A model generated the notes under the pieces. The model saw nothing but the letters and a program-made list of their open reading frames with translations, did not search any database and was not told where the DNA came from. A stretch of DNA of 64,000 nucleotides from Melittangium boletus DSM 14713 (GTDB lineage Bacteria > Myxococcota > Myxococcia > Myxococcales > Myxococcaceae), in assembly GCF_002305855.1 (NCBI RefSeq), contig NZ_CP022163.1:7195765-7259764 (forward strand), read 5' to 3'. This document shows, in pieces, positions 17,301 through 30,271 of the stretch; the first letter of the stretch is position 1; each line of letters begins with the position of its first letter. The translations under genes were made by a program, and so were the position numbers.

Positions 17301-19815
17301 GGGAGTAGAGCGCCCCCAGGCTGCCCAGAAGACATGGGCGCTCGTCTTCCTGGCGCACCAGGGAGGGCAGCACGCGGGCCGGGTACGCGCCGGCGCGGAC
17401 GGCCTGCTCGATGGAGGGCAGGAGGATGGGGTGGGGGCTGAGCTCCAGGAAGACGTCGTGGCCGGAGGTCAGCAACTGCTCCACGGCCTGGAAGAAGAGG
17501 ACGGGCTGGCGCAGGTTGTCCACCCAGTAGGCGGGGCCGAGCGTGGCGCCGTCCAGCACCTGGGCCCGGACGGTCGAGTAGAAGGGCAACTCGCCGGCGC
17601 GGGGGGTGAGGCCCTGGAGGACCTGGAGCAGCTCCTCGCGCAGGGGATCCATCTGGGGGCTGTGGCTGGCGACGTCCACCTTGACGAGGCGGCAGAAGAC
17701 GTCGCGCCGCTGGAGCGAGTCGAGCACCCGCTGGAGGGCGGCGGGGTCTCCGGAGAGCACGGTGGAGCGGGGCCCGTTGGAGACGGCCACGGAGAGCGCG
17801 TCCTCGAAGCCCCGCAGGGCGAGGCGGGCCTCGTCGAGGGACAGCTCGACGAGCGCCATGGCGCCCTGGCCGCTGGTGCGGCGCAGCAGGAGGCTGCGCT
17901 GGCAGATGATGAGGGCGGCGTCCTGGAGCGAGAGGATGCCGGCGACATGGGCGGCGGCCACCTCGCCCATGCTGTGGCCGACGACGGCGTGAGGCCGCAC
18001 GCCCCACGAGCGCCAGAGGGCGGCCAGCGCCACCTGGAGGGCGAAGAGGACGGGTTGGATGACGTCGATGCGCTCGAGCAGGGGCGAGGCGGGCCAGGCG
18101 CGCAGCACCTCGAGCAGACGCCAGGAGACGTGGTGCGCGAAGGCGGCCTCACAGGCCTCGAGCGCTTCCCGGAAGACGGGCTCCTGCTCCAGCAGGCGGC
18201 GGCCCATGCCGGGCCACTGCGAGCCCTGTCCGGGGAACACGAACACCGGCTTGAGCGGCAGCTCCGCGCGCATGCCCGTGGACGTGCCCGGCCGGGCCTC
18301 GCCCCGCAGATGCGCGTCCAGGCGCTCGGCCAGCTCCTCCCGCGAGCGCCCCACCACCGCGAGCCGGTGGGCATGGTGCCCGCGGCGCACGCTCGCGGTG
18401 AAGCACAGCTCCTCCACGCGCTCCGCCCGAGGCTCGCTCAGCAGGGAGCGCCAGGCGCCGGCCAGGGCCTCCAGGGCCTCGGGGGCGTGCGCGGACAGGG
18501 GCAGCAGGAACGCCTCGTCCTCGCGGACGGGACGCGGGGGCGCGGCGGGGCGAGGGGCCTCCTCCAGCACCACGTGGGCGTTGGTCCCGGTGATGCCGAA
18601 CGCGCTCACGCCGGCCAGCGCGGGCTCCGCTCCGGGCCAGGGCGTCAGCGCCTGGGGAATGACGACGGGCAGCTCGTCCCAGGGAATCTGGGGGTTGGGC
18701 GTCTGGAAGTGGAGGCTGGGCGGAATGGCGCGGTGCTGGAGCGCCATCACCACCTTCATCATCCCGGCGAGCCCCGCCGCTCCCTCGGTGTGCCCGATGT
18801 TCGTCTTCACCGAGCCCACGAAACAGGGCCGCTCCCGCTCCCTGTTCTCGCCCAGCACCGACGCGAGCGCCCCGAGTTCGATCGGATCTCCCGCGCGCGT
18901 GCCGGTGCCGTGCGCCTCCACGTAGCCCACGCGCGAGGGCTCCACGCCCGCGGCGCGATAGGCCTCGCGCAGCAGCGCTTGCTGACCCTCGCGGCCTGGC
19001 GTGACGAGGTGCCCGCTGCTCTGCCCGTCGTTGTTGACCGCGCTGCCACGGATGACGGCGCGGATGGGATCTCCCTCCCGGAGCGCCTGGGAGAGCGGCT
19101 TGAGCACCAGCACCGCCACGCCCTCGCTGCGCACGTAGCCATTGGCGCGCGCGTCGCCGAACTTGCTGCGCCCGTCCGGCGACAGCATCGTCGAGCGCGA
19201 GTAGGCCAGGGTGACGTACGGCTCGAGGATCAGATTGCTGGCGCCGACCAGCGCCACCTGGCACTCGCCCTGCCGCAGGCTTTGACAGGCCAGGTGCACC
19301 GCCACCAGGGACGAGGAACAGGCCGTATCCACCGTCAGGCTGGGGCCTCGCACGTCCAGGAAGTAGGACAACCGGCCCGACGCCGCGTACCGCCCGCCGC
19401 CCGTCGTCGCATGGACGTCGAGCTCGGGCAGCGCCTCGTACATGCGCAGCTCGTAGTCGTTCGTCCACATGCCGACGAACACCCCGGTGGCGTGGCGCGG
19501 CAACTTCTCCGGTACCTGCCCGCCGTCCTCCAACGCCTCCCAGGCCACTTCCAGCAGCAGCCGCTGCTGGGGATCCATCAGGTTCGTTTCACGCGGGGAG
19601 AGCTGGAAGAAGCGCGCGTCGAAGCGGTCCACCTGCTCCAGGAAGCCGCCCTTGCGGCTGGCGATCCGCTCTTGCAACCGCTCGGCGTTGAACCGCTCCA
19701 ACGGGGCGTCGCCGATGGCGTCCACTCCGTCGCGGACCAGTTGCCAGAGCTGGCTCGCCGTGTTCACGCCGCCTGGAAAGCGGCACCCCATTCCAATGAT
19801 GGCAATAGGCTCCAT
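14335..19815 (-). CDS. Type I PKS module KS-AT-DH-KR-ACP, first gene of the assembly line, no loading or docking region
   Basis: Begins MEPIAIIGMGCRFPGG, that is KS directly. KS Cys present (TVDTACSSSL). AT motifs GHSMGE and VASH. DH motif LSDHRVHGQGVLP. KR motifs YLLTGGLGGLG and LDD. ACP motif LGFDSLMTLEL. Confidence 0.9.
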
Positions 19816-19904
19816 CGTGCCCTTCCCGTGTGCGTGTGTTCGGGGCCCTGCCGTCGCCGAGGTCTCCCGGGGGAGATCCGTCGGGGGGCAAGGTCCACAC
19901 CGGG

Positions 19905-19933
19905 TTTATACGGGAAAGCTGTAAGAATGTGAA
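19905..19933 (-). promoter_or_regulatory. Candidate sigma70-like promoter (TTCACA - 17 bp - TATAAA) for the PKS operon
   Basis: Read on the minus strand: -35 TTCACA (plus 19928-19933) and -10 TATAAA (plus 19905-19910) with a 17-bp spacer. Sits in an unusually AT-rich 129-bp gap between the STAND gene stop and the PKS start. RBS GGGAAGGG precedes the ATG at 19815. Confidence 0.35.
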
Positions 19934-19944
19934 CACCCAGGGAT

Positions 19945-22900
19945 TCAGGACTGGATCAGCCGGTCGATCGTTTCGAGTTCAAGGGCTCTCCATAGACCCA
20001 GGCTCAGCCATTCCTTCGCGAGCAGGGCGGCGCTGTCGTCGCCTGGCTGGATGCTCAGTCGGCCTGCGAGTTCATCCCATTCGCACTCGGAGAGGGATTG
20101 GCTGGAGAGCGCACGGCGGTGCAGGGCGAGAAGACGGTCCGCGGCGGAGGCATCCGCCAACTCCGCGAGCACCGGCTCCACGAGAGAGGGATCATCGACC
20201 CGCGACAGCTTCGCCAACCCTCGCAGCCGGAGTGACAGGAAGGCCTCTCCGTTCGGACCTGGCCATCGATCCCGGTAGCCGAGCTTGGCGCCTTGTGAGG
20301 TGAAACGCGCCAACCACTGCTCGCCGAGGGTCCGTCCATCCCGGGCGAGCGCCCGCAGCATGAGTTGGGTGGAGGTGGATTTCGGCAGCCCGGGGTATTC
20401 GGACAAGGCCCGGAGGGTCCAGGGAGAGAGTTCCGCGCCATGATCGGACACGAGCCGGATCACGAGGTCCGTGATGTTTTCCGGTGTATGGCCAAGCGCC
20501 GCCATGGCCTCGAGATGGTGAGGGGCCTCGTTCAGCCAGCTGTCGTGGTGAAACGAGTGCAGTCGCTCGATGAGGATGTCGATGCGACGTGGGGCGCTCA
20601 TGTCCGCCTGTTCGAGGACCTCGAGTGCCTCCTTGATATCGACGTGGCTGGGGAGCCAGAGCACCGCGTGCTGGAGGACGCTTCGAATCGAATCGTTGGG
20701 TGGCCTCAAGGACAGCAGGGTTCGCGCTCTCCGGAGGGATTCGGAAGGATAGACATGGGCGAACGCGTACACGGCCGCCTCGACCACGGGAATGAGCCGT
20801 TCGTCGCGGCCTCCCAACTCATGAAGCAGGCACGCCGCCTCCACTTGCAGGTCGAACAGCTGCTGCCGGTGGTCCGGGTCGCTCGTGGCGGTGGTGACAT
20901 CGATGCTCAGCGCTCGACGAAGAACCTCGATGCGCTTGCCGGTGAGCCGTCTTCCCGCTTTCGCCAGCCTGTCGAATCGGAGGATGGCGTGAAGTCCCTC
21001 GGGAGGCGTCCGGTGGCGGAGTGCGGTCCGGAGCCAGCGGCGCACGGTCCTTGGCGGAGGGGTGGACGGCTCCTTCCGGGACTTGCACCAGCCCTCGATG
21101 AAGGAGAGCGCGTCTTGCCCGATCCCGTCCTCAACGTGCTCGAAGGCGAGCTCGACGGCGAACAGGATGGCGTCGCGGGTGATAGGGACGCGGTACTGAA
21201 AGAGAAACGTGAACGCCGAGCGCCTCTCGGGGTTCTGCCTCCGGATGATGGCCCATGCATCCGGGAAGCGCTGGAGCCATTGATAGAGAAACAGCTCGTC
21301 GTCATCGAACCTCGTTCGAGCTGGATTCAAACGCGCGATCACCTGCTCCGACAGGCATGGAATCTGGAGGCCGCACCCCTCCGCGAGATGGAGCAGGGCG
21401 TCCAGCTGGCTCCTGTCGATCGTCCGAAGACGGGCCGTGAGTGCCGCTTGGACCGCGTCACGCGTGTCCTCGCGCTTCGCGAGGAACCTCGCGGCGCGGC
21501 GGAAGCGTGCCTCCTCCACGTCATCGAGCCACGCGGTGAGCCGGGCAATGCCCATGCCGGGCCGATAGACACACAGCGCGTGCATCGCCTCGGCATCGAC
21601 CCGTGGTTCCTCCCATTCATGGCGGAAATCATGCAGTGCCTCGTTCCACTCCGGTCCCTGGGCGATGACCCGTGATTCATAGGACGCCCCGAGTAGGAGG
21701 TGACGCTGCGTTCTCTTGTACGGGTGGCCCGCCCGTTCGAGCGCTTCCATCAATACCGCATGGGCTTTCTCCTCCAGGAAGCCACACCGCAGCGCGACGC
21801 GTGCCGCGTCCACCCGGAGCGAGGGGTCCGTGGCCTCGAGCACGCGTGCGATCGAGGGTTGGATCCATTCCCGGGTCTCCTGGGGAAAATGAACGGCGAG
21901 TGCTTCGGCGGCCTCCAGGACGCGTTCCACGGAGCTTCCGTCGAGCGCGAGCCGCCACAGGCGGGCCGCGTCGCTCTCCGCGCCCGCGTGATGGAGGCGT
22001 CCGGCGAGCCATTCCATCTGGCCCTGGGTCAGCTCATGAGGCGACATCACCCGGCAGGCCTCGATGGCGGCGGGGACCGTCTCCTCGTTGTCGAAGCTTC
22101 CCCACAGGAGCAGTCCGTACACCTCCCGCAGGCTCGCTCCCTCTCTCGAATGGAGCGCGAGGCGCTGGCGGACCGCCTCCCGGGCGAAGGACTGCTCTCG
22201 CATCAGGCGGAAGAGCGCGTCCGTTGCCACCTCTCCCACCAGGCCTGGCCGGCCCAGTGCCTCCAGCACGTGCTCCAGGGACGAAGGCTCCGCGGTCACG
22301 AGCCTCGCGAGCGTGGACGACCAACTGATCCGGGTGAATCCGTCCCTCTCTTTCGGCTCCCTGACGGACTCCACGGGAAGTCCTCGCAGGATGGCTTGCA
22401 CGGCCGTCGAGGCGAAGGCCTTCATGCGGCTCACGGGCCAATACATGTAATCCTTCACGTGCGTGTCCGTGGCGCGCGCGGCTTCCTCCGCGTCCACGGC
22501 CACGATCCGTGCATCCACCCGGTGGTGCCGCCAGATCAGCTCGGACGCCGCCTCCCGCCGGATGGTGGACACCGGGTCCTCCAGCAATTCATACAGGACA
22601 GGCACCACGAGGTCCTTGTCCTTCGTGGGCGCCGCGGACACGAGCTTCGCCGCGGCGAGCCGGGTCTCGACGGGGAGCTCCCGGGCCCTCGCGCATTCGA
22701 GCCACCCCTCGAGCGGCTTCCATTCCAGATGGGACATGAGCCCGTGCATGTGCTCGTACACGATGCCGAGCACGTCTGGATTTCCCGAGCGCGCGCAGGA
22801 GCGCAGCGTCGCCAGTGCCTCCTGGGTGAGCTCGGGCTGGCGGCCAGCCGCGAGCCAGGCCCAATGTGCCCGGGTGGCGTCGTCCGGGGAGCGCATGCCT

Positions 22901-25446
22901 CGCCGCAGCGCCGCGTGGAGATGCGTGTCATCCGGGGTGAAACGGCGGAGCAGGCGCGCGGCGCACATCCGCCGTTCGGGCTGCCGGTCCTCCAGCCATC
23001 GGCGGAGGGTGTCGAGGAGGCCGCGCCGCTCCTCTCCCGCTTGCTCCAGCAACCGTTCCAACTCCTGACGGACCCTGGAGTCGGTCTCGGCGGTTCGCTT
23101 CAGGACTTCCTCGAGCATCCCCTCGACCAGGGGGACCACTTCCTGGACGATTCCTCGCGCGTGGGCCCCCAGCGTCGAGTCATCGACCATCCAGTCGAGG
23201 AGGGCGTCACGCACGGGTTTCGAGTCGGCGCGCAGCTTCAACACGGCCTTGGCATCCTGCTCGCGGTGCGTGCCCTTGGAGAGCGTCTGCTTCAGCACCT
23301 CGGCCACGTCGCCGTCCCACATGCCGGCCACCGCGAGCAGCAGCGCCGATGACAGTCGGAGCTCCCGCTGGGCCTCCGGCTCGGGAATGGGCGTGCGGAC
23401 GAGTTCTTGTAATTCCTTTCGCAGGGCCTCTCCCCCGCGGCGTACCCGCTCGCCCACGGCCTCCGGGTGGGGTCTCCCGTAGGCCCTGCCAAAATGGCCC
23501 AGGACCTCGATGACCTCGTGACTCCACTCCCCCGCCGAGGCGAGGCCGAATGCGCCGAGGACGCGCAACTTCGTATCCAGGCGGCGCTCCAGCCAGCCTT
23601 CGCAGAGTTTCCGCGCGGTGGGAACGTCCGCGGCCTCGGGGGCGATGAGGGAGGCGATTCCATCCCGCACGTCGCTCACGCCATGGGGCTCGATGCGGGC
23701 GAAGCGCTCCAGGAGCTCCGGGGACAGCCGTGACGTCGGCCCCTTCGTGGCGAGGCGGCCAAAGACCTCCCAGAGGGGATTGGGCGGGGTCCGCTCGAGC
23801 AGGTCGGCCCAGGTGGACCACACCCGCTCGGTGAGTTCGGGGTCGAGGCGCAGGTCGTACTCGAGGCAGTCGGACAGGTCCCTCAGACCGGGACGAAGGA
23901 ACTGGCCCGCGCCACGCTTGTCCCGATCGAGCAACCCCTGGACGAGCGCGGTGACCTCGCCCGTGGCGCCACACACATGGTCGAGGTGCGCGGCGGCGAA
24001 CTTCAAGACCCACGGGGGAAACCTTGGCTCCGCGAGGATGCGCTCCGCGGCACCGCGCTCTCCATGGCGGACGAGCGCGCGGGCGGCGAGGAACTCGGCG
24101 AAGGTCGAGTGCCAGAAGACGAAGACCCCGCCTTCTTCCTGGATGAGTCCTGTTTCGAGCGCGAGGTGGAGTGCCTTGTCCGCAGACTCCCGGGTCACCG
24201 CGCCGAGCAGGCGGATGAAGAGCGCCCGCACGCCGCCGCCGCGTTGCTCCTGACGGACCAGCGCGAGCGCGACAGCGGACCAGACGTCCATGAGCCCGTC
24301 CGCCTCCGCGCGGGTCAGCCCCAGCGCGGAACGCCACTCCCAGAGGAGCGTGCGGATGAAGTTCTCGAAGACGAAGATCTCGTGCCGGGGGATTCCCTCT
24401 TCGTTCGTGGGCGAGAGCGCCAACAGCGTGAGCAGGAGCGGGTTGCCTCCCAGCCGTTGCAGCCGCTTTCCGGGCTGGAGTTCCCTCAACAGGGCGTTCG
24501 TGCGGTGGCGGGCGCGGGCCTCGCTCCCGGCGTCCTCGTCCTCGCGTCTCTCGAGGAGCCGGTGCAGGCGGGTGACCAGGTTGCGCCGCTGCCGGGGATG
24601 GAGGGGCGCCAGCTGGGTTTGCGCGAGGCGGGGGATGCGCGGGCGGTAGCCGTTGGGCCGCGAGGTCACCAGCAGCCGCACCGTCTCATACCGCTCGAAG
24701 AACGCCGTCAACGCCTCCACGACGGGCCTGCGCTGCTCCTCCGCAACCTCGTCGAGCCCATCGCAGAGCAGGAAGAGCCTTCCGGCCTCCAGCAACTCGC
24801 CGAGCCCGGCGGCGAGCTCGGGCGCCTTCTGGGCGTGGAGCTGGTCACGGATGAGCTGGTCCATGGACAGCCCCCCGGTGGACAGCGCGCCTCCAAGTCT
24901 GCCGAGTGACAGGCGCACGGGAAGCAGCTCACTCAGGGACTGGACCGCCCCCACCGCTTGCGCATCGAACGCATCGTCATCGCACAGCAGTTGACGGGCA
25001 CGCACCGCCGCGGCTCCCTCGGTACAGGCCAGGAACGCCAGCCGGGTGAGCACGGTCTTGCCCGTCCCCGGGTCGCCGATGACGGTGAGCCGGGAGTACT
25101 TGTGGAGCGCCTTGGCGAAGGAGATGGGCTCACCCGCGTGTTCCCACCGGCCGTCCTGGAGCCGCCGGAATTCCTCCTCGAGTTTTCGCCGCTCGTCCTG
25201 GGAGAGGCGCCGGTCGTTCAACCGGTCCATCAAGGTCTCGGCGCTGGGCACCCGCTGCTTGGACTCATCGTGCAGCGAGGAGGCCACCGCGAAGTCGAGC
25301 AGATCGAGCTCCGTCTCGTGGCGGCCTCGCTCAATGCCCGCGAGACGGCTGAGGTCGAGGCGGCGGAGGCTCGGCTCCTTCGCCCACGCTTGTTTGTACT
25401 TCGCCAGCGCTTGGGACACCGCGGGGGACGGACCGGGCAAGGACAT
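19945..25446 (-). CDS. STAND NTPase (NACHT-type NB domain) with about 1350-aa C-terminal HEAT/ARM-like helical repeats, 1833 aa
   Basis: Walker A GDPGTGKT (nt 25064-25087). Walker B LFLLCDGLDEV. Sensor-1-like LLVTSRP. GxP motif GGNPLLLTLLA. Short (about 115 aa) N-terminal helical region. No recognisable nuclease, TIR or HTH. Repeated ...L..LL.D....VR..A...L pattern throughout the C-terminus. Confidence 0.85.
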   Translation of the reverse strand: MSLPGPSPAVSQALAKYKQAWAKEPSLRRLDLSRLAGIERGRHETELDLLDFAVASSLHDESKQRVPSAETLMDRLNDRRLSQDERRKLEEEFRRLQDGRWEHAGEPISFAKALHKYSRLTVIGDPGTGKTVLTRLAFLACTEGAAAVRARQLLCDDDAFDAQAVGAVQSLSELLPVRLSLGRLGGALSTGGLSMDQLIRDQLHAQKAPELAAGLGELLEAGRLFLLCDGLDEVAEEQRRPVVEALTAFFERYETVRLLVTSRPNGYRPRIPRLAQTQLAPLHPRQRRNLVTRLHRLLERREDEDAGSEARARHRTNALLRELQPGKRLQRLGGNPLLLTLLALSPTNEEGIPRHEIFVFENFIRTLLWEWRSALGLTRAEADGLMDVWSAVALALVRQEQRGGGVRALFIRLLGAVTRESADKALHLALETGLIQEEGGVFVFWHSTFAEFLAARALVRHGERGAAERILAEPRFPPWVLKFAAAHLDHVCGATGEVTALVQGLLDRDKRGAGQFLRPGLRDLSDCLEYDLRLDPELTERVWSTWADLLERTPPNPLWEVFGRLATKGPTSRLSPELLERFARIEPHGVSDVRDGIASLIAPEAADVPTARKLCEGWLERRLDTKLRVLGAFGLASAGEWSHEVIEVLGHFGRAYGRPHPEAVGERVRRGGEALRKELQELVRTPIPEPEAQRELRLSSALLLAVAGMWDGDVAEVLKQTLSKGTHREQDAKAVLKLRADSKPVRDALLDWMVDDSTLGAHARGIVQEVVPLVEGMLEEVLKRTAETDSRVRQELERLLEQAGEERRGLLDTLRRWLEDRQPERRMCAARLLRRFTPDDTHLHAALRRGMRSPDDATRAHWAWLAAGRQPELTQEALATLRSCARSGNPDVLGIVYEHMHGLMSHLEWKPLEGWLECARARELPVETRLAAAKLVSAAPTKDKDLVVPVLYELLEDPVSTIRREAASELIWRHHRVDARIVAVDAEEAARATDTHVKDYMYWPVSRMKAFASTAVQAILRGLPVESVREPKERDGFTRISWSSTLARLVTAEPSSLEHVLEALGRPGLVGEVATDALFRLMREQSFAREAVRQRLALHSREGASLREVYGLLLWGSFDNEETVPAAIEACRVMSPHELTQGQMEWLAGRLHHAGAESDAARLWRLALDGSSVERVLEAAEALAVHFPQETREWIQPSIARVLEATDPSLRVDAARVALRCGFLEEKAHAVLMEALERAGHPYKRTQRHLLLGASYESRVIAQGPEWNEALHDFRHEWEEPRVDAEAMHALCVYRPGMGIARLTAWLDDVEEARFRRAARFLAKREDTRDAVQAALTARLRTIDRSQLDALLHLAEGCGLQIPCLSEQVIARLNPARTRFDDDELFLYQWLQRFPDAWAIIRRQNPERRSAFTFLFQYRVPITRDAILFAVELAFEHVEDGIGQDALSFIEGWCKSRKEPSTPPPRTVRRWLRTALRHRTPPEGLHAILRFDRLAKAGRRLTGKRIEVLRRALSIDVTTATSDPDHRQQLFDLQVEAACLLHELGGRDERLIPVVEAAVYAFAHVYPSESLRRARTLLSLRPPNDSIRSVLQHAVLWLPSHVDIKEALEVLEQADMSAPRRIDILIERLHSFHHDSWLNEAPHHLEAMAALGHTPENITDLVIRLVSDHGAELSPWTLRALSEYPGLPKSTSTQLMLRALARDGRTLGEQWLARFTSQGAKLGYRDRWPGPNGEAFLSLRLRGLAKLSRVDDPSLVEPVLAELADASAADRLLALHRRALSSQSLSECEWDELAGRLSIQPGDDSAALLAKEWLSLGLWRALELETIDRLIQS

Positions 25447-25458
25447 CGAGTTCTCGGC

Positions 25459-27546
25459 TCAGGACAGCGTCACGTCATAGTACGGACGTATCTCGCCCGT
25501 TCGCGCGTTGGGCCACTGTGGCTCGGGACCCCAGGCTCCGCCCTGCTTGGGACGGCTTCGGACATGGACCCGGAGCCGGTGGAGTTCCCTCTCCACCTCC
25601 AACAGGTTGTACAGGCGAGGCACCGACTCGGGCCGATCCCGGTAGGGAGCCCCGAAGCTCCCCGCTCCGATGACATGCATGCTCCGCCACGGGTGGGTGG
25701 GGTCGAGGAGGTCCGCCCGAATCTCGTGGACGTGGCCGTGGAGGCAGACGCGGACGTCCGCCTGGCTCAAGCGGCTCGTGAAGGCGTCATCCTTGATCTT
25801 CTCGTTGCCGGTGATGGGGTGATGCCAGACCGCCATCCGGAGGACGTTCGACTCCCGGCCGAGTTCCCTGTCCGCGGCTCGGAGTCCCCGGGACAGGGCA
25901 CCCTCGTGGATGCTGGAGCGTTCCGTGAAGTGCTTGTCGATCTCCCACGCGGAGTTCAGGGCCAGGAATTGAATGCGCGACTCGCGGAAGAAGAACGAGA
26001 GACACTGCTCCTCGGGCGGGAGTGGATAGGCTCGCTGGAAGAGCGGCTGATAGAAGAAGTCGGAGAAGTTCTTGAACCGCTCCGCGTAGACCTGGGCGCT
26101 CCAGTCCAGGTCATGGTTGCCCGGGACGATGATGCATTGCCGGGGCGTCAGCCCGAATTCCTCGAGGAGTTCCGAGACGAACGCGCGGGCCTTCTCGAAC
26201 TCCTGGGGCGAGGCCTTCTGGGTGAGATCTCCCGAGATGACCAGATGGTCCAATCGCTCGACGCCCAGCCCCCGGGGTGGCTTGCCTCGCAGGTCCGCGG
26301 CGAGCGGCTGGAGCAGGTTGTGGGGATCCTGTCCGGCCTCGACGTGCAGGTCGCTCAGATGGAGGATCCGGATGGGAGAGTCCGGACTGGGCGGCTCGGG
26401 ACGGGTGGGGCGGGGGGCCGGTGCCTCGGGAGCGCTCGGGGACACGGAGGACGGTCGCTCCTGGAGCAGCTCGGACCAGGGGATTTCGATGGACTCGCGG
26501 TCGCCGGACAGCGTTCGGGTGTCCGGCTCCAACACGAGCGTCCCGTCCTCCGTCATGAACGTGCTTCGCGGAAAGAGCTCGAGCCGTCCTCCCATGCCGG
26601 TGAGCTGGAGCTGTCCGGCGAGATAGCCCGAGCCCGGCGCGTGCGACGACCTGGGCAGCTCGCTGAAGAGGTCACTCGCGTGCAGCGAGCGGGACCAGGG
26701 ACGCGGCGGAACACCGAGGAGCGAACCGCCCTCGGTGAGCCGGTCGCCACACAGATGCAGGAGCGGGCGTCCCGGGAAGGCGAGCCGTTCTCCCAGCTCG
26801 GTGAGGAGCGCGTCGCGCAGCTTCGACGGGGGATGGTGCGTCAGCAGCAGGAGCGCGTCATGGGGGCGCGCCCAGGCCCGGAGGTCCTGCCCCGTGGCCG
26901 CTTCCACCTGCTCCACGTCGATCTCGTTCATGCCCTCCAAGCCGTCCCGGGCCGAGCTCCGGAAGCTGGAGTTGAGCCCGATGACGCCCACCGTCACGCC
27001 CTCGGAGGCCACGGTGGCGGCGAAGTCTCCGGGAAGCAGCCCCGGGCGGAAGGAGGTGAGCTGGGAGGACGGGTGCATGTGCCGCCAGGTGCTGAACCAG
27101 TCGTTGAAGGCCGCGAACCCCTTCCAGACGGTCCGCTCCACCTGGCCCGGGCTCTCCGCCCGGAAGGCCTTTCGTGCTTCCAGGGCCCGGTAGCGGCTTC
27201 CCAGATCCGGGAGCCGGGGGTTCGGGTCCCGCCGGATGTCATGGTCGCCGGGCACCACGAGCAGGCATGGCTCCGAGCCCAGCTCGCGCAGGAGCGTCCA
27301 CAGGGAGTCCAGCGCGGAGTTCAGCAGCTCGAATTCACGGGGACTGCCCGTCAGCGTGAGGTCGCCCGAGATGAGGACCAGACTCCACGGACCCGCGCGC
27401 GCATGGAGCCCGCGCAGGTCCTGATGGAGGGCTTCCCTGTACTCGGGTTGCAGCAGCCGTGAGCCATGGATGCCCAGGTGAAGATCCGACAGGTGCAGCC
27501 ATCCGAGTCGAGCCACCGTTCCCCCAGCGCGCGCGGAGGCCAGCAT
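25459..27546 (-). CDS. Tandem calcineurin-like metallophosphoesterase (two CpdA/Mre11-type MPP domains), 695 aa
   Basis: Domain 1: LHLSDLHLG, ISGDLTLTG, VPGDHD, LLLTHHPP, with the final GHxH motif replaced by CGDR (degenerate). Domain 2: LHLSDLHV, ISGDLTQKA, VPGNHD, AVWHHP, CLHGHVHE (complete motif set). The stop lies 12 nt before the STAND gene start. Confidence 0.85.
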   Translation of the reverse strand: MLASARAGGTVARLGWLHLSDLHLGIHGSRLLQPEYREALHQDLRGLHARAGPWSLVLISGDLTLTGSPREFELLNSALDSLWTLLRELGSEPCLLVVPGDHDIRRDPNPRLPDLGSRYRALEARKAFRAESPGQVERTVWKGFAAFNDWFSTWRHMHPSSQLTSFRPGLLPGDFAATVASEGVTVGVIGLNSSFRSSARDGLEGMNEIDVEQVEAATGQDLRAWARPHDALLLLTHHPPSKLRDALLTELGERLAFPGRPLLHLCGDRLTEGGSLLGVPPRPWSRSLHASDLFSELPRSSHAPGSGYLAGQLQLTGMGGRLELFPRSTFMTEDGTLVLEPDTRTLSGDRESIEIPWSELLQERPSSVSPSAPEAPAPRPTRPEPPSPDSPIRILHLSDLHVEAGQDPHNLLQPLAADLRGKPPRGLGVERLDHLVISGDLTQKASPQEFEKARAFVSELLEEFGLTPRQCIIVPGNHDLDWSAQVYAERFKNFSDFFYQPLFQRAYPLPPEEQCLSFFFRESRIQFLALNSAWEIDKHFTERSSIHEGALSRGLRAADRELGRESNVLRMAVWHHPITGNEKIKDDAFTSRLSQADVRVCLHGHVHEIRADLLDPTHPWRSMHVIGAGSFGAPYRDRPESVPRLYNLLEVERELHRLRVHVRSRPKQGGAWGPEPQWPNARTGEIRPYYDVTLS

Positions 27547-27577: not shown

Positions 27578-27947
27578 TCAGACGTTGAGGGACTGGAGCA
27601 GCAGCGAGAGCTGATCCCGGCTGGCGCCCTTGGGCAGGTAGTAGTGCGGCCCGGAGCGGAGCGCGCCGCCCACGTCCTGCACCGCCGCGGCCGTCAACAG
27701 CACCACGCGGGGCGGATCTCCTCGCGGCATCCGCTCCAGGACCTCGAGGCCGTTCATCCCGGGCATGTTCAGATCCAGGAGCATCACGCCGTAGCGCTGC
27801 CGCGCCAGCGAGTCGAGGGCCTCCTGACCATTGGCCGCTTCGATGGCTTCGTAACCGAGCTCTTCCAGGCACAAGCGAAGGAACTCCCGCCAATCTGCGT
27901 CGTCGTCGACGACCAGTACTTTGCGCGCGTCATCCGCGGAAGCCATT
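27578..27947 (-). CDS. Stand-alone CheY-like receiver (REC) domain protein
   Basis: VLVVDDD acidic pocket, phospho-acceptor Asp in MLLDLNMPGMNG, conserved T/S and Lys (LPKG). Start taken at the ATG at 27947. The track's 27955 start is TTG. Lies 31 nt upstream of the tandem MPP gene. Confidence 0.75.
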
Positions 27948-28052
27948 GATTCCAATCGTCCTCCCCGTACCAGTGGGAAAACTCATCGAGCATGGCCGAA
28001 CATTCTCCGGCGCCTGCTCGACTGGCCGGTTTCCAGGGGAGTGAGCGGGCCG

Positions 28053-28886
28053 CTAGAGCAGGGCGGCGGACAACTGCGAGGCCAGGTACTGCAGCGCGGG
28101 CATGACGTTGGGCGCCGAGCGCTGGCGCGTGGGCGGCAGGTGGGCCTGGCGCCAGACGGGCTCGCCCGTGAGGCGGCCGGCGGCGTGCGAGAAGACGCGG
28201 AATCGGCCCAGCTCGACGGAGCTGCCCGAGTTGTAGATGCGCAGTGAGCGTCCCCGGGGGTGGCCCAGGTCGAACTCGCGCGGCACGTGCCGGTGCCCGT
28301 GCAGGATGAGATCGCACCGGCCCTGGATGCGCTGGACCAGCTCGGCGCCCAGGGCGAGCTCCGAGGCGTGGGGCCAGCCCATTCGCGTCGCCAGCCGCTC
28401 GGGGAAGCTCTCCTCGGGGAGGGGCAGCACGTGGTGGTGCAGGAGGATCGCGGTGAGCGCGCCCAGGGGCGCGGCGCTCAGGGCGCTGTCCACGGCGTCC
28501 AGGACGGCGGGGGTCAGCACGCCGTGGCAGGCGAAGTAGTTGCGGTTGTGGGGACCCGTGGAGTCCACGCACACCAGGTACAGGCCCTCGTGGTGCTCCA
28601 CCCGGACCTTCTGGCCGTTCATCCACCGGCCGCCCGCGTCCTCGCCCGTGCGATCGTGGTTGCCGGGGACGAAGGTGAGCCGTCCGGTGTCGAGCAGCGG
28701 CGCGAAGATTTCCCGGAAGCGCCGGTACTCGCGCTGGCTGCCTTGGTGGGTCAGGTCGCCCGTCACCACCACGTGGTCCACGCGGCCGGAGAGCAGGCTC
28801 TCGACGAGCGCGCGGGCGGTGGTGTCACTGCCGGGGGTCAGGTCCAGGTGCAGGTCCGACAGGTGCGCCAGGGTTCTCAGGTGCAT
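28053..28886 (-). CDS. Metallophosphoesterase (CpdA/PlcP-like), about 278 aa
   Basis: Complete motif set LAHLSDLHLD, VTGDLTHQG, VPGNHD, LLHHHVLP, LHGHRHVP. Start placed at the internal ATG (MHLRTLAHLSDLHL) at 28886 rather than the track's 29177, which would overlap the upstream glycosyltransferase gene. Confidence 0.7.
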   Translation of the reverse strand: MHLRTLAHLSDLHLDLTPGSDTTARALVESLLSGRVDHVVVTGDLTHQGSQREYRRFREIFAPLLDTGRLTFVPGNHDRTGEDAGGRWMNGQKVRVEHHEGLYLVCVDSTGPHNRNYFACHGVLTPAVLDAVDSALSAAPLGALTAILLHHHVLPLPEESFPERLATRMGWPHASELALGAELVQRIQGRCDLILHGHRHVPREFDLGHPRGRSLRIYNSGSSVELGRFRVFSHAAGRLTGEPVWRQAHLPPTRQRSAPNVMPALQYLASQLSAALL

Positions 28887-28972
28887 GGTGCTCGAGTACC
28901 CCGGGGCTGAAACACCCCCGTGGCCCTCGGGTGAAGCTTCCGGGAGGAGCCGGTGACTTCGCGGTGAAGCGC

Positions 28973-30271
28973 TCAGCCCGCGAGCAGTTCCGCCGCGCGC
29001 TGGGGCTCGGGGAGCGCCGGGGACAGGGGCCGCTCCGGAGAGGGCGTCACGAGCCGCGAGCCCGCCATCACGCGCAGCGAATGGCCGCGCCAGTTCACCG
29101 AGCGGACCACCAGCCCGTGGGCCCAGGCCACGAAGAGCAGCGCGTCCTTGAGCAGCACCGCGGGCAGCGTCATCCACGGCGTCTTCTGCCCGGGCCGCAT
29201 GATGCGGAAGACGATCACATCATGGAGTCCCTTCACCACGGCCACCCCGCCCGCCATCGCGAGGGTCGGCGTCGAGGGCGACAGGGCCGCGCTCAGCAGG
29301 GCCCACGGCAGCGGGTTGAGGATGGACTGCGCCAGGTACAGCGGCGTGGGGATGCAGGAGTGGTGGATGATGCTCCAGCGCACGTAGCGCTGGAAGAAGG
29401 TCCGGACGCTCTTCTTCTGGGACACGTTGTAGACGGGCGAGCGGGCCACCACGGCCCGCTGGCCGCTGTAGCGCCTCATCCACTGGCCGATGACGAAGTC
29501 CTCCGCGAGCACGTTGCGGACCGAGTAGAAGCCGTCCAGCGCTTCCACCGCCTCGCGGCGCAGCGCCATGGACTTGCCCACCACGATGTCCTGGCCCGCG
29601 GCCCGCTTGGCGGCGATCTGTCCCGCGGCCGCCGTGGAGCACAGGTACAGGTTGTCCATCAGCGAGCCGAGCGACTGCTCGCCCACGCCGCTCACCGGGT
29701 GGGACACACAGCCCACGGAGGGATCCTCGAAGGCGCGGGAGATCTCCTCCAGGTAGCCGGGCCCCACGCGGGTGTTGGAGTCGCTGATGAGCAGGAGGTC
29801 GTAGCGCGCCGCGGCCGCCAGGGTGATGAGCTGGTTCACCTTGGGGTTGAGGCCGGGCTCGCCGTGCTGCATCTCCAGCTTCATCACATCGGGCCAGCGC
29901 GCCACGGCCGCCAGGGCCACGGGGTAGGCGGGATCGCGCGTGTCCTTCACCCCGAGGATCACCTCATAGGCGGGATGGCCGAGCGTGGCGAAGCACTCGA
30001 GGTTGGCCTCCAGGTCATCGTCCACGCCGCACAGGGGCTTGAGGATGGAGATGCCCGACAGCCGCTCCGTGGGCCCGGTGCCGGTGACGGGCTCCGAGGT
30101 GTCCCAGCGGTGGCGCAACACGCAGAAGAGCTGGACGCAGAGGGCGAGGGTTCCGAGGGCGGCCGCCGAGAGGAGGGCGAGGCTGAGCGCGTGAGCGGTG
30201 AACACGGATGTTCTCCTGGACTGACGGGCGCGGGGAGCGCGCGTCCTGTCCAGGGACGCTACGGACCACAT
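28973..30271 (-). CDS. Family-2 glycosyltransferase (ceramide glucosyltransferase / Pgt-Agt-HpnI-like), membrane
   Basis: N-terminal transmembrane helix. ISILKPLCGVDDDLEANLE and LISDSNTRV (DxD-type GT-A motifs). Hydrophobic C-terminal half. ATG at 30271, 65 nt after phoU. Confidence 0.75.
   Translation of the reverse strand: MWSVASLDRTRAPRARQSRRTSVFTAHALSLALLSAAALGTLALCVQLFCVLRHRWDTSEPVTGTGPTERLSGISILKPLCGVDDDLEANLECFATLGHPAYEVILGVKDTRDPAYPVALAAVARWPDVMKLEMQHGEPGLNPKVNQLITLAAAARYDLLLISDSNTRVGPGYLEEISRAFEDPSVGCVSHPVSGVGEQSLGSLMDNLYLCSTAAAGQIAAKRAAGQDIVVGKSMALRREAVEALDGFYSVRNVLAEDFVIGQWMRRYSGQRAVVARSPVYNVSQKKSVRTFFQRYVRWSIIHHSCIPTPLYLAQSILNPLPWALLSAALSPSTPTLAMAGGVAVVKGLHDVIVFRIMRPGQKTPWMTLPAVLLKDALLFVAWAHGLVVRSVNWRGHSLRVMAGSRLVTPSPERPLSPALPEPQRAAELLAG

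What the first reader, a model, noticed from the sequence alone, without database searches (positions are those of the whole stretch)
19945..25446. 1833-aa NACHT STAND with minimal N-terminus and giant HEAT-like sensor region
The architecture is a short (about 115 aa, coiled-coil-like) N-terminus, then the NACHT domain, then roughly 1350 aa of degenerate alpha-helical repeats. No TIR, nuclease, protease or transmembrane domain is recognisable. The output therefore probably depends on the neighbouring genes. Its stop is followed by the only strongly AT-rich patch in the region.
Basis: seen in the sequence. Interest (0 to 1): 0.6.

Follow-up and report, generated by a model that had tools for sequence, protein, structure and literature searches.

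The report
Split-effector bacterial NLR-like immune gene pair
The 1833-residue protein is a real bacterial relative of animal NLR immune sensors that has lost its built-in "weapon" domain. It is always found just downstream of a separate gene for a two-domain phosphoesterase, which most likely acts as that weapon, so the pair is a two-gene variant of a known kind of anti-phage system.

Summary
Window 19945-25446 (-) encodes an 1833-aa protein of Melittangium boletus (WP_095980637.1). It has a short N-terminus, an intact NACHT module (Pfam; predicted fold closest to NLRC4/NOD2/NLRP3) and about 1350 aa of HEAT-type solenoid (confident AlphaFold2 model; closest to CAND1, karyopherins, mTOR). No effector, HTH or membrane segment was found.

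About 31 full-length myxobacterial homologs carry a swappable N-terminal effector: TIR, nucleoside phosphorylase, metallophosphoesterase (MPE), CHAT or Lon-like protease. The query and its three orthologs begin exactly at the effector/NACHT junction. All four have a ~700-aa double-MPE gene 12-40 nt upstream on the same strand, in four unrelated genomic contexts.

That partner joins a catalytically degenerate MPE domain to an intact one. Elsewhere both cassette types are fused to NACHT, TIR or WD40-Roc GTPase proteins. Their best curated matches are the anti-phage systems DS-8 (MPP-NACHT) and DS-9.

The PKS/NRPS genes downstream are unrelated. The "AT-rich patch" is a modest 50% GC stretch of the intergenic spacer upstream of the PKS gene.

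Verdict: a new split-effector variant of bacterial NLR-like defence. Function and substrate are inferred, not shown.

The parts
19945..25446 (-). NACHT-HEAT sensor gene (1833 aa, WP_095980637.1), with no effector domain in cis
   Evidence: ORF; GC3 0.84; 100% identical to the NCBI protein; Pfam NACHT above cut-off
25096..25446 (-). N-terminal extension, aa 1-117. It is the family-wide conserved segment that, in fused relatives, lies directly after the effector domain. No domain of its own.
   Evidence: Only 11 residues precede the conserved QALAKYK helix, against 160-372 in fused homologs. No Pfam match. Modelled as helix 8-22, short strands and helix 83-99.
24559..25095 (-). NACHT nucleotide-binding domain, aa 118-296. 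Walker A is aa 124-131 (nt 25054-25077); Walker B is aa 224-233 (nt 24748-24777).
   Evidence: Pfam NACHT/NPHP3_N; motif search; invariant columns G124, G127, G129, K130, D229, D232, E233, R263
24007..24558 (-). Helical and winged-helix parts of the NOD module, about aa 297-480, including FWHSTFAEFLAA (H446)
   Evidence: AlphaFold2 model m4b4f2c841a7e and Foldseek matches to NLRC4/NOD2/NLRP3 over about 630 aligned columns; invariant F444, W445, H446
19948..24006 (-). HEAT-type alpha-solenoid, about aa 481-1833: the presumed sensor. It is conserved along its whole length across the family.
   Evidence: AlphaFold2 pLDDT 87.3, about 70 helices. Foldseek matches CAND1, Kap121p, RanBP5, mTOR, SF3B1. 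Identity to homologs over this part is 31-56%.
25447..25458 (-). 12-nt spacer between the stop of the MPE gene and the ATG of the NACHT gene (operon junction)
   Evidence: Sequence. Orthologous junctions are 13, 40 and 13 nt and lie in different relative frames.
25459..27546 (-). Partner gene: double metallophosphoesterase. The longest ORF is 695 aa. NCBI starts it 10 codons later (685 aa, WP_170115618.1), i.e. at about 27516.
   Evidence: ORF; Pfam Metallophos with 2 stretches; NCBI protein; orthologs 62-67% identical, all upstream of NACHT orthologs
26512..27513 (-). N-type MPE domain, aa 12-345, catalytically degenerate. GNHD has become GDHD, and GHxH is replaced by GDRL.
   Evidence: Motifs. 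GHxH is present in 121 of 139 homologs but absent in this clade and its closest relatives.
26377..26511 (-). Proline-rich linker between the two MPE domains, about aa 346-390
   Evidence: Translation; variable and gapped in the ortholog alignment
25462..26376 (-). C-type MPE domain, aa 391-695. All metal-binding and catalytic motifs are intact: DLH, GD, GNHD, HH, GHVH. This is the presumed active effector.
   Evidence: Motifs; invariant in orthologs and in 13 diverse homologs; best curated matches are DS9_1 (4e-27) and DS8 (3e-15)
19816..19944 (-). NOT part of the system: the 129-nt spacer between the NACHT stop and the start of the PKS gene. It holds the 50% GC patch and, read by eye, TTCACA-17 nt-TATAAA at 19905-19933.
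   Evidence: Sequence; composition. The scan tool called no promoter and no terminator here.

Best explanation
The two genes 25459-27546 and 19945-25446 (- strand) form one operon that encodes a bacterial NLR-like conflict system, most likely anti-phage, with the sensor and the effector on separate polypeptides.

**Shown**
- The large protein is an intact NACHT ATPase followed by a roughly 1350-aa HEAT solenoid.
- Its relatives carry interchangeable N-terminal effector domains, and this lineage lacks one.
- This lineage always has a pseudo-MPE + MPE protein encoded immediately upstream.
- Both MPE cassette types are covalently fused to NACHT, TIR or WD40-Roc proteins elsewhere.

**Inferred**
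1. The HEAT solenoid binds an invader-derived (phage) protein or another danger signal.
2. This releases the NACHT module to exchange or bind ATP and to oligomerise, as in NLRC4 and Avs.
3. The oligomer recruits or clusters the separately encoded MPE protein. The degenerate N-type MPE domain may be the docking or regulatory half.
4. Clustering activates the intact C-type MPE, which hydrolyses phosphodiester bonds. The substrate is unknown: either nucleic acid or a nucleotide/cyclic-nucleotide pool. The result would be growth arrest or abortive infection.

**Likely origin (inferred).** The MPE protein probably derives from a 'bookend' protein (N-type MPE, WD40, Roc GTPase, C-type MPE) by loss of the central part. 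It would then have become the in-trans output of an effector-less NACHT-HEAT scaffold.
For: **Sensor**
- NACHT is supported by Pfam, by intact and family-invariant Walker A/B, R263 and H446, and by fold: NLRC4/NOD2/NLRP3 at E from 5e-11 to 1e-8.
- HEAT solenoid is supported by a confident model and fold matches.

**Effector swapping in the family**
- There are 33 full-length homologs at 34-59% identity.
- 31 of them have 160-372 extra N-terminal residues: Metallophos, TIR, PNP_UDP_1, CHAT or Lon_C-like.
- The query, P0002 and P0003 have only 9-11 residues before the conserved helix.
- The query's N-terminus aligns to the segment just after the fused MPE of P0004/P0005.
- On a neighbour-joining tree of the shared region, the split clade is monophyletic. 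It arises at the same unresolved node as the MPE-fused pair.

**Conserved pairing**
- All four effector-less loci have the double-MPE gene directly upstream on the same strand: the window, L002, L003/L004, and L005+L001.
- The gaps are 12, 13, 40 and 13 nt.
- The flanks differ in each: PKS here; cysS/ffh in L001; esterase and Lnb_N/deacetylase in L003.
- The stop and start are in frame only in the window, so this is not a sequencing artefact.

**Effector character of the MPE domains**
- The C-type domain has 635 word-index hits. It always sits at the extreme C-terminus of Roc-WD40, kinase-PNP, TIR, CHAT, caspase, EAD or NACHT (P0122) proteins.
- The N-type domain has 1930 hits among 1.84 billion representative proteins. 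It usually sits at the N-terminus of large proteins, including NACHT (P0337), NACHT-FGE-sulfatase (P0234) and TIR (P0224).
- Both types flank WD40-Roc in P0213, P0216, P0221 and P0222.
- The best NCBIfam families for both domains are the anti-phage DS9_1 and DS8 models.

**Literature**
- DS-8 is a metallophosphatase-NACHT protein that protects E. coli from phage and needs both its MPP catalytic residues and its NACHT ATPase residue (PMC13092281).
- Bacterial NACHT proteins are anti-phage. Calcineurin-like phosphoesterases are listed among their N-terminal effectors and HEAT repeats among their sensors (bioRxiv 10.1101/2022.07.19.500537).

**Foreign signature.** GC3 of the pair is 0.84-0.86 against 0.94-0.95 for the adjacent PKS genes.
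Against: - No experiment exists for this protein or its family. The anti-phage role, the trigger, the physical NACHT-MPE contact and the substrate are all inferred.
- Neither protein has a recognisable adaptor domain (EAD or Death-like) that could explain recruitment in trans.
- No PADLOC model for Avs or bNACHT matches the NACHT protein. The DS-8/DS-9 matches are far below the equivalog cut-offs.
- The locus is not in a defence island. Its neighbours are a PKS/NRPS cluster, the Pho regulon, two-component systems and fatty-acid synthesis genes. No tRNA, integrase or flanking repeat marks mobility.
- No relative was found on viral contigs.
- The pairing rests on only four loci.
- The window's C-type MPE lacks segments of about 34 and about 9 aa that all homologs keep. 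Its N-type domain has lost more catalytic residues than its orthologs have. This copy could therefore be weakened.
Confidence: 0.62

Rival explanations
1. It is the same two-gene machine, but its trigger is endogenous rather than viral. It would be a regulated cell-death, kin-discrimination or developmental-lysis switch of a social myxobacterium, as proposed for many STAND 'conflict systems' of multicellular bacteria.
For: The family is confined to Myxococcota (Melittangium, Archangium, Corallococcus, Pyxidicoccus, Hyalangium). It sits in ordinary chromosomal contexts rather than defence islands. No copy was found on viral contigs. Kaur et al. link such systems to bacteria with a multicellular habit (PMC8195603).
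Against: [quoted passage not shown] The only tested MPP-NACHT protein, DS-8, is anti-phage. Nothing here separates the two triggers.
Confidence: 0.15
2. The NACHT-HEAT protein works without the MPE protein. It could be a sensor or decoy that co-oligomerises with an effector-bearing paralog (as in NAIP-NLRC4), or a scaffold with some other output. The upstream MPE gene would be only a hitch-hiking neighbour.
For: There is no detectable docking domain. Only four loci support the pairing. The closest structural matches include NAIP5/NLRC4, which work as sensor-helper pairs.
Against: The pairing holds in 4 of 4 loci with 12-40 nt gaps and different flanks. Both MPE cassette types are fused to NACHT proteins elsewhere. 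Sister proteins P0004/P0005 carry a fused MPE. No second member of this family from M. boletus appears among the 92 hits.
Confidence: 0.1
3. The M. boletus copy is a decaying remnant. The ORFs are intact but the effector no longer works.
For: The window's C-type MPE lacks about 34 aa and about 9 aa that are present in all orthologs and in more than 100 homologs, including three nearly invariant residues. Its N-type domain has GDHD and GDRL where its orthologs keep GNHD and one His.
Against: Both ORFs are full length with coding-type GC3. All C-type metal-ligand motifs and all NACHT motifs are intact. The N-type domain is degenerate in the whole subfamily, not only here.
Confidence: 0.08
4. It is a STAND-type transcriptional or pathway regulator (MalT, AfsR or LuxR-like) of the adjacent PKS/NRPS cluster or of the Pho regulon.
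For: It sits directly upstream of two type I PKS genes and an NRPS gene on the same strand. Several phosphoesterase and Pho genes lie on the other side.
Against: There is no HTH or any DNA-binding domain. Orthologs lie next to cysS/ffh or Lnb_N/deacetylase genes, never next to a PKS. Homologs carry TIR, PNP, CHAT and Lon-like effectors. GC3 differs from that of the PKS genes. A 129-nt spacer containing a promoter-like sequence separates it from the PKS gene.
Confidence: 0.03

Closest known systems
DS-8 (DefensePredictor system 8; metallophosphatase-NACHT single protein of E. coli; PMC13092281)
   Same: It combines a calcineurin-like metallophosphoesterase output with a NACHT ATPase. In DS-8 both are needed for phage defence. 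The DS8 and DS9_1 NCBIfam models are the best curated matches for both MPE domains here, and for the fused MPE of sister protein P0004, which matches model positions 1-256 of 994 at 1e-27.
   Different: DS-8 is one polypeptide with a model length of 994. Here the MPE is a separate 695-aa protein with two MPE domains, one of them degenerate. The NACHT protein is 1833 aa with a giant HEAT solenoid. The NACHT part does not match the DS8 model, and all scores are far below the equivalog cut-offs of 790 and 420 bits. The host is a myxobacterium.
Bacterial NLR-related proteins (bNACHT; Kibby et al., bioRxiv 10.1101/2022.07.19.500537)
   Same: It has a NACHT module with a C-terminal 'antigen-receptor-type' repeat sensor (HEAT is listed) and N-terminal conflict effectors that vary between close relatives. 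The listed effectors include calcineurin-like phosphoesterase, TIR, PNPase and peptidases. Their Table S1 contains 'Calcineurin-conf+NACHT+FGE-sulfatase' architectures.
   Different: [quoted passage not shown] Here the effector sits on a separate, strictly conserved upstream gene. No PADLOC bNACHT model matches. The protein is not in the held part of their Table S1, so its clade is not assigned.
Avs (antiviral STAND) proteins, e.g. Avs3 bound to phage terminase (PDB 8dgc)
   Same: The logic is the same: effector, STAND ATPase, and a large helical-repeat sensor that recognises a phage protein and drives oligomerisation. The Foldseek match to Avs3 is E 4.6e-4.
   Different: The ATPase is NACHT-type and is much closer to animal NLRs than to Avs3. 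No PADLOC Avs model matches. The sensor is HEAT-type and the effector acts in trans.
'Bookend' proteins: N-type MPE, WD40, Ras/Roc GTPase, C-type MPE (P0213, P0216, P0221, P0222). These are NTPase-centred conflict systems of multicellular bacteria (Kaur et al., PMC8195603).
   Same: They contain the closest relatives of both halves of the 695-aa partner protein: the N-type domain at 40-53% identity (53% is P0196, a related partial protein) and the C-type at about 60%. They show the same combination of a degenerate N-type and an intact C-type domain.
   Different: In those proteins the two MPE domains flank a WD40-Roc core in a single polypeptide. Here the core is absent, and a NACHT-HEAT protein is encoded next door instead.
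Animal NLR inflammasomes (NLRC4/NAIP, NLRP3-ASC-caspase-1)
   Same: These are the best structural matches of the NOD module. The principle is shared: an NLR oligomer activates an enzyme encoded by another gene.
   Different: There is no CARD, PYD or Death-like adaptor. The sensor is HEAT, not LRR, and the effector is a phosphoesterase, not a protease. The resemblance is one of logic only. Sequence identity is 12-15%.

Membership tests
NACHT clade of STAND P-loop NTPases | Match to the NACHT profile above the curated threshold | tested here: met
   PF05729 scores 35 bits against 26.7; PF24883 NPHP3_N scores 30.1 against 24.8
NACHT clade of STAND P-loop NTPases | Intact Walker A (GxxxxGK[ST]), Walker B (hhhhDGhDE) and sensor-1 Arg | tested here: met
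   GDPGTGKT at 124, LFLLCDGLDE at 224, R263; all invariant across 34 family members
NACHT clade of STAND P-loop NTPases | NBD, helical and winged-helix fold as in solved NLRs | tested here: met
   AlphaFold2 pLDDT 85.5; Foldseek NLRC4 5e-11, NOD2 5e-10, NLRP3 7e-9
bNACHT / bacterial NLR-related anti-phage proteins (Kibby et al.) | Effector or adaptor domain on the same polypeptide (usually N-terminal) | tested here: not met
   Only 11 residues precede the conserved family helix; no domain in aa 1-117
bNACHT / bacterial NLR-related anti-phage proteins (Kibby et al.) | C-terminal repeat-type sensor (LRR, TPR or HEAT) or FGS domain | tested here: met
   HEAT solenoid in the model and fold search
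bNACHT / bacterial NLR-related anti-phage proteins (Kibby et al.) | Protection against phage | not testable with these tools
   Requires expression and phage challenge
bNACHT / bacterial NLR-related anti-phage proteins (Kibby et al.) | Placement in one of the 25 published NACHT clades | tested here: inconclusive
   The accession is absent from the held part of Table S1, and no reference sequences were available for a tree
Avs1-5 (antiviral STAND) | Match to the Avs profile models | tested here: not met
   The PADLOC scan gave only one noise hit (mad8, E 0.052); Avs3 ranks 33rd in the fold search
DS-8 (MPP-NACHT anti-phage protein) | Single polypeptide with an N-terminal metallophosphatase and a NACHT | tested here: not met
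   The MPE is a separate gene, and the split is conserved in 4 orthologous loci
DS-8 (MPP-NACHT anti-phage protein) | Equivalog-level match to NF053861 | tested here: not met
   The NACHT protein has no hit. The MPE protein scores 77 bits against a cut-off of 790.
Calcineurin-like metallophosphoesterase superfamily (C-type domain, MPE aa 391-695) | Motifs DxH, GD, GNH[DE], H, GHxH | tested here: met
   DLH 399, GD 439, GNHD 476, HH 575, GHVH 604; invariant in orthologs and homologs; Pfam Metallophos 2.9e-21
Calcineurin-like metallophosphoesterase superfamily (N-type domain, MPE aa 12-345) | Motifs DxH, GD, GNH[DE], H, GHxH | tested here: not met
   DLH, GD and HH are present, but GNHD has become GDHD and GHxH has become GDRL. 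GHxH is kept in 121 of 139 homologs. The fold is homologous; the catalytic set is incomplete.
MalT/AfsR/LuxR-type STAND transcription regulators | DNA-binding HTH domain | tested here: not met
   None found by Pfam or NCBIfam. The models show only the NOD module and the solenoid.
HEAT-repeat proteins | Pfam HEAT/HEAT_2 above threshold | tested here: not met
   HEAT scores 22.6 against 23.5; HEAT_2 scores 17.5 against 27.7. The HEAT assignment rests on the predicted fold only.

The most novel reading that the evidence does not exclude
The effector-less NACHT-HEAT protein activates its enzyme in trans through a pseudo-enzyme adaptor. The degenerate N-type MPE domain would have given up catalysis to become the docking or regulatory partner that couples the intact C-type MPE to whichever NTPase scaffold is present: WD40-Roc in cis, or NACHT-HEAT in trans. 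That would be a bacterial counterpart of NLR-adaptor-enzyme inflammasome logic built without Death-fold adaptors. It would also show that one effector unit can be exchanged between GTPase-based and STAND-based immune scaffolds.
Probability: 0.25. Interest if true: 0.65.

Novelty: new variant of a known kind. Interest (0 to 1): 0.45.

Why it matters
- Almost all bacterial NLR-like defence proteins studied so far are single polypeptides. Here the sensor and the enzyme are separate proteins, which gives a natural system for asking how a NACHT oligomer switches an effector on. Interaction, stoichiometry and activation could be studied with separable parts.
- The family (about 35 myxobacterial members, with one conserved 1700-aa NACHT-HEAT chassis) carries TIR, PNP, MPE, CHAT and Lon-like heads. 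It is a clean example of effector swapping on a fixed sensor, and a route to finding what the HEAT sensor recognises.
- The pseudo-MPE + MPE pairing recurs in Roc-WD40 proteins. This suggests a conserved but undescribed regulatory relation between the two domains.
- The substrate of these defence metallophosphatases is still unknown, including for DS-8 and DS-9.
- For annotation: the gene should not be counted as part of the neighbouring PKS/NRPS biosynthetic cluster.

Tried and rejected
- **Genome-contig scan with the family alignment.** No family contexts were obtained. Contexts were taken instead from exact-protein look-ups.
- **Two metagenome-contig scans.** They used the double-MPE alignment and the split-clade NACHT alignment. 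Neither found a further instance.
- **Viral contigs.** No NACHT relative was found, and only generic MPEs.
- **Promoter and terminator scan.** It found no promoter and no terminator at the gene ends.
- **tRNA and repeat searches.** No mobility hallmarks were found.
- **PDB sequence searches of the MPE, single sequence and profile.** Only weak matches to the N-terminal motifs were found, spread over cyclic-nucleotide phosphodiesterases (Rv0805, Lmo2642), GpdQ, SbcD/Mre11 and MPPED2. The question of nuclease versus nucleotide phosphodiesterase stays open.
- **Simple gene-fission idea.** The idea was that the upstream MPE is the detached effector of a P0004-like ancestor. It is not supported as stated. 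Both MPE domains are only 25-31% identical to the P0004/P0005 effector, and their nearest relatives are WD40-Roc 'bookend' proteins.
- **In-frame TGA between the two genes as read-through or sequencing error.** Rejected, because the orthologous junctions are out of frame.
- **Clade assignment in Kibby et al.** It failed: the accession is not in the held supplement text.
- **Not modelled.** No complex prediction was possible.


Full report
**1. What is at the coordinates**

The window is 70% GC. It comes from the Melittangium boletus DSM 14713 chromosome: the ORF product is 100% identical to WP_095980637.1/ATB32463.1, which lies on a 9.9-Mb contig.

The ORF at 19945-25446 (- strand, ATG to TGA, 1833 aa) exists exactly as described. 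In such a genome long ORFs occur by chance in many frames; for example, an 1880-aa ORF lies antisense to the PKS gene. I therefore checked codon-position GC. GC1/GC2/GC3 are 0.73/0.47/0.84, the pattern of a real gene. Homologs of conserved length confirm it.

**2. Anatomy of the protein**

*NACHT module*
- Pfam NACHT and NPHP3_N exceed their gathering scores over aa 118-296.
- Walker A (GDPGTGKT, 124), Walker B (LFLLCDGLDE, 224), R263 and the winged-helix motif FWHSTFAEFLAA (H446) are present. They are invariant across 34 family members.
- An AlphaFold2 model of aa 1-650, built on the family alignment, has pLDDT 85.5 and pTM 0.82.
- Its best PDB matches are animal NLRs: NLRC4 at 5e-11, NOD2 at 5e-10, then NLRP9, NLRP3 and NAIP5. 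Avs3 scores only 4.6e-4.

*N-terminus (aa 1-117)*
- It has no Pfam family.
- The model shows helix 8-22, three short strands and one helix (83-99) leading into the P-loop strand. This is an extension of the NOD module rather than a coiled coil or an adaptor.

*C-terminal region*
- The model of aa 641-1833 (pLDDT 87.3) consists of about 70 helices of 8-20 residues.
- It matches CAND1, Kap121p/RanBP5, mTOR, SF3B1 and Utp10/20 at E from 1e-8 to 1e-6.
- By sequence alone HEAT is sub-threshold.

*Absent features*
- No TIR, nuclease, protease or HTH domain is reported by Pfam, PADLOC or NCBIfam.
- No transmembrane segment is predicted.

**3. The family shows what is missing**

The protein search returned 33 further full-length homologs, at 34-59% identity and 98-100% coverage. 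All are from Myxococcota or from metagenomes.

I aligned them and counted the residues ahead of the conserved QALAKYK helix:

| Residues before the helix | Members | N-terminal domain |
|---|---|---|
| 9-11 | query, P0002, P0003 | none |
| 160-170 | TIR group | TIR |
| about 250 | 'unknown' group | Lon_C-like; P0034 above the Pfam cut-off, others weak, all with the SCGLAVALAALS...ATGEV motif |
| 278-372 | remaining members | PNP_UDP_1, Metallophos or CHAT |

- The query's first residues align with the segment of P0004/P0005 that directly follows their fused metallophosphoesterase.
- The shared NACHT-HEAT chassis is conserved along its whole length: 44-68% identity over aa 1-650 and 31-56% over aa 641-1833.
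- A neighbour-joining tree on the shared columns groups members largely by effector, with TIR appearing twice. The three effector-less members form one clade, which leaves the same unresolved node as the two MPE-fused proteins.

This is the effector-swapping pattern described for bacterial NACHT proteins. This lineage has no effector in cis.

**4. The partner gene**

*Position and domains*
- Twelve nucleotides upstream on the same strand lies ORF 25459-27546. It is 695 aa; NCBI annotates 685 aa as WP_170115618.1.
- It contains two calcineurin-like phosphoesterase domains.

*Conservation of the pair*

All known effector-less orthologs share the arrangement.

| Locus | Source | NACHT | MPE gene upstream | Gap |
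|---|---|---|---|---|
| window | M. boletus | query | query | 12 nt |
| L002 | Logan SRR9290677 | P0002 | 63% identical | 13 nt |
| L003/L004 | GCA_034691105 / GCA_034691145 | 1860 aa, 60% identical | P0094, 67% identical | 40 nt |
| L005 + L001 | JGI 3300073950 | P0003 | P0095 | 13 nt |

- L005 and L001 are two contigs of one locus. The 32 residues after the MPE gene in L005 equal the start of P0003, and L001 begins with the '...YYDVALT*' end of the MPE gene.
- The flanks differ everywhere:
  - the window has PKS genes on one side and a receiver-domain gene on the other;
  - L001 has cysS, ffh and Big-domain genes;
  - L003 has esterase and ATP-grasp genes on one side and Lnb_N and deacetylase genes on the other.
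- The conserved unit is therefore exactly these two genes.
- In the window the MPE stop and the NACHT start happen to be in frame (15 nt apart). In the other loci they are not (16, 43 and 16 nt). The split is genuine.

**5. What the partner is**

*C-type domain (aa 391-695)*
- It has every metal-binding and catalytic motif (DLH, GD, GNHD, HH, GHVH). All are invariant in orthologs and in diverse homologs.
- It belongs to a large family (635 hits) in which it always sits at the extreme C-terminus. Its host proteins are Ras/Roc-WD40 proteins, kinase-PNP proteins, and TIR, CHAT, caspase, EAD and NACHT (P0122) proteins.

*N-type domain (aa 12-345)*
- It has 1930 relatives among 1.84 billion representative proteins, 495 of them at E of 1e-30 or better. 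They sit mostly at the N-terminus of proteins of 400-2200 aa.
- Examples are MPE-NACHT (P0337), MPE-NACHT-FGE-sulfatase (P0234) and MPE-TIR (P0224).

*Degeneracy of the N-type domain*
- Most N-type domains keep GHxH (121 of 139).
- The subgroup closest to the query does not: it reads LHLCG[SGD]... instead. Some of its members also lack DxH or GNH.
- The window copy has gone furthest, with GDHD and GDRL.

*'Bookend' proteins*
- This degenerate subgroup includes P0213, P0216, P0221 and P0222. They have N-type MPE, then WD40, then Ras/Roc, and finally a C-type MPE at the C-terminus.
- The 695-aa protein therefore looks like a bookend protein without its WD40-Roc core. The two halves are joined by a proline-rich linker.
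- I infer that pseudo-MPE plus MPE is a conserved effector unit, and that here it serves a NACHT-HEAT scaffold encoded next door.
- The simpler idea, that it is the detached effector of a P0004-like ancestor, is not supported. Both domains are only 25-31% identical to that effector.

**6. Link to known defence systems**

- The best NCBIfam models are DS9_1_antiphage and DS8_antiphage:
  - the whole partner scores 6.9e-41 and 6.2e-22;
  - each domain alone also hits them;
  - P0004's fused MPE matches DS8 model positions 1-256 of 994 at 1e-27.
  
  All scores are far below the equivalog cut-offs.
- PADLOC also matches an 'Effector' model and PDC-S60.
- According to DeWeirdt et al. (PMC13092281):
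  - DS-8 is a single metallophosphatase-NACHT protein that protects E. coli from phage;
  - it needs both its MPP catalytic residues and its NACHT ATPase residue;
  - its MPP is homologous to SMPDL3A;
  - its substrate is unknown.
- Kibby et al. list calcineurin-like phosphoesterases among bNACHT effectors and HEAT among the sensors. They note that the tested bNACHT genes were rarely in operons. Their Table S1 contains 'Calcineurin-conf+NACHT+FGE-sulfatase' proteins.
- The NACHT protein itself matches no PADLOC Avs or bNACHT model. I could not place it in the published clades.

**7. Substrate**

- Sequence searches of the PDB, with the protein and with a 14-sequence profile of the C-type domain, give only weak matches restricted to the N-terminal motifs.
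- The matches are spread over cyclic-nucleotide and other phosphodiesterases (Rv0805, Icc, Lmo2642, GpdQ, MPPED2, acid sphingomyelinase-like) and over nucleases (SbcD, Mre11).
- The class of substrate is unresolved.

**8. Surroundings**

- Downstream on the same strand are two KS-AT-DH-KR-ACP type I PKS genes (14335-19815 and 8813-14338). After them comes an NRPS with a TubC_N docking domain (5370-8834).
- Upstream are the following:
  - a lone receiver-domain gene, a third MPE and a GT21 glycosyltransferase;
  - PhoU and pst permease genes, and two-component systems;
  - further on, plsX/fabH/fabF, glyA, ribD, a P450 and cheA.
- This is not a defence island. There is no tRNA, integrase or flanking repeat.
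- GC3 of the pair (0.84-0.86) is below that of the PKS genes (0.94-0.95). That fits later acquisition.
- The 129-nt spacer after the NACHT stop holds the '50% GC' patch at 19900-19959. It is no lower than 21280-21339 inside the gene.
- Read by eye, the spacer contains TTCACA-17 nt-TATAAA, ending 90 nt before the PKS start codon. The scan tool does not call it, and it finds no terminator. It most plausibly belongs to PKS expression, not to the NACHT gene.
- Fused relatives also sit in ordinary chromosomal contexts.

**9. Mechanism and confidence**

*Shown*
- An intact NACHT ATPase with a HEAT solenoid.
- A family with swappable effectors.
- A lineage-specific lack of a cis effector.
- Strict linkage to a pseudo-MPE/MPE gene.
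- Fusion of both MPE types to NACHT proteins elsewhere.

*Inferred*
- Ligand binding by the solenoid.
- ATP-dependent oligomerisation.
- Recruitment or clustering of the MPE protein, possibly through its degenerate domain.
- Phosphodiester hydrolysis that causes arrest or abortive infection.

I put 0.62 on this two-gene sensor-effector conflict system. The rivals are:

| Rival | Confidence |
|---|---|
| Same machine with an endogenous (developmental or kin) trigger | 0.15 |
| NACHT acting without the MPE | 0.10 |
| A decaying copy (the window's C-type MPE lacks about 34 and about 9 aa kept by all homologs) | 0.08 |
| A regulator of the PKS or Pho genes | 0.03 |

**10. Novelty**

- The kind is known: a bacterial NLR-like defence protein with a metallophosphatase output.
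- Neither this family nor a conserved operon with the effector in trans and a tandem pseudo-MPE/MPE turned up in the papers I searched and read.
- I rate it a new variant of a known kind, with moderate interest.

Noticed in passing
window 5370-19815 (- strand), and probably beyond 5370 towards position 1: A hybrid PKS/NRPS biosynthetic cluster: two KS-AT-DH-KR-ACP modules (14335-19815 and 8813-14338, with a 4-nt overlap) followed by a C-A-PCP NRPS with a TubC_N docking domain (5370-8834). Its GC3 of 0.94-0.95 is higher than that of the NACHT/MPE pair.
   Followed up: partly
window 19905-19933 (- strand): TTCACA-17 nt-TATAAA, a near-consensus sigma-70-like pair of hexamers ending 90 nt before the PKS start codon, inside the 50% GC patch. 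The scan tool did not call it because the last base of the -10 hexamer is A.
   Followed up: partly
window 25459-25461 / 25446: The TGA of the MPE gene and the ATG of the NACHT gene are in the same reading frame, 15 nt apart. This is a coincidence of this genome, since the three orthologous junctions are out of frame.
   Followed up: yes
window about 26080 (after MPE aa 488) and about 25860 (near aa 562), - strand: The M. boletus C-type MPE lacks segments of about 34 aa and about 9 aa that are present in its three orthologs and in more than 100 homologs. Three nearly invariant residues are among those lost. Whether this is a variant or decay is unexplained.
   Followed up: partly
window 27578-27955 and 28053-29177 (- strand): A lone CheY-like receiver-domain gene lies 31 nt upstream of the longest MPE ORF (about 61 nt from the NCBI start). 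A third, single-domain metallophosphoesterase gene lies further upstream. Both have the lower GC3 (0.83-0.86) of the NACHT/MPE pair. Neither is found next to the orthologous pairs. A fourth MPE gene (35494-36438) sits among the phoR/phoB-like genes.
   Followed up: partly
L086 6826-7980 and L088 6711-7943: The fused relatives P0004 (MPE head) and P0009 (PNP head) lie at what looks like the same chromosomal spot, with a DSBA gene downstream in both. They have different same-strand genes immediately upstream: DUF1963 and a PLD-like (PLDc_2) protein. These could be additional partners.
   Followed up: no
P0015, P0020-P0028, P0032-P0034 (family members), N-terminal about 250 aa: The largest effector group of the family has a divergent Lon_C-like serine protease head with the motif SCGLAVALAALS...ATGEV. 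Pfam detects it above threshold only in P0034.
   Followed up: partly
P0213, P0216, P0221, P0222: 'Bookend' proteins: a degenerate N-type MPE, a WD40 propeller, a Ras/Roc GTPase and an intact C-type MPE at the extreme C-terminus. P0213 has a further MPE-like domain in front. The recurring pseudo-enzyme/enzyme pairing is unexplained.
   Followed up: partly
window 8915-14557 (+), 15901-19932 (+), 24958-27462 (+): Very long ORFs (1880, 1343 and 834 aa) lie antisense to real genes. They failed the coding-type codon-GC filter (GC3 above 0.82 and GC2 below 0.6), so they are high-GC artefacts, not genes.
   Followed up: yes
window 58849-60825 (+) next to 55446-57695 (+): A 658-aa protein with strong Pfam HEAT_2 repeats (1e-46) lies shortly downstream of a CheA-type kinase gene (two short ORFs lie between them). 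It is unrelated to the NACHT solenoid by position and was not examined further.
   Followed up: no
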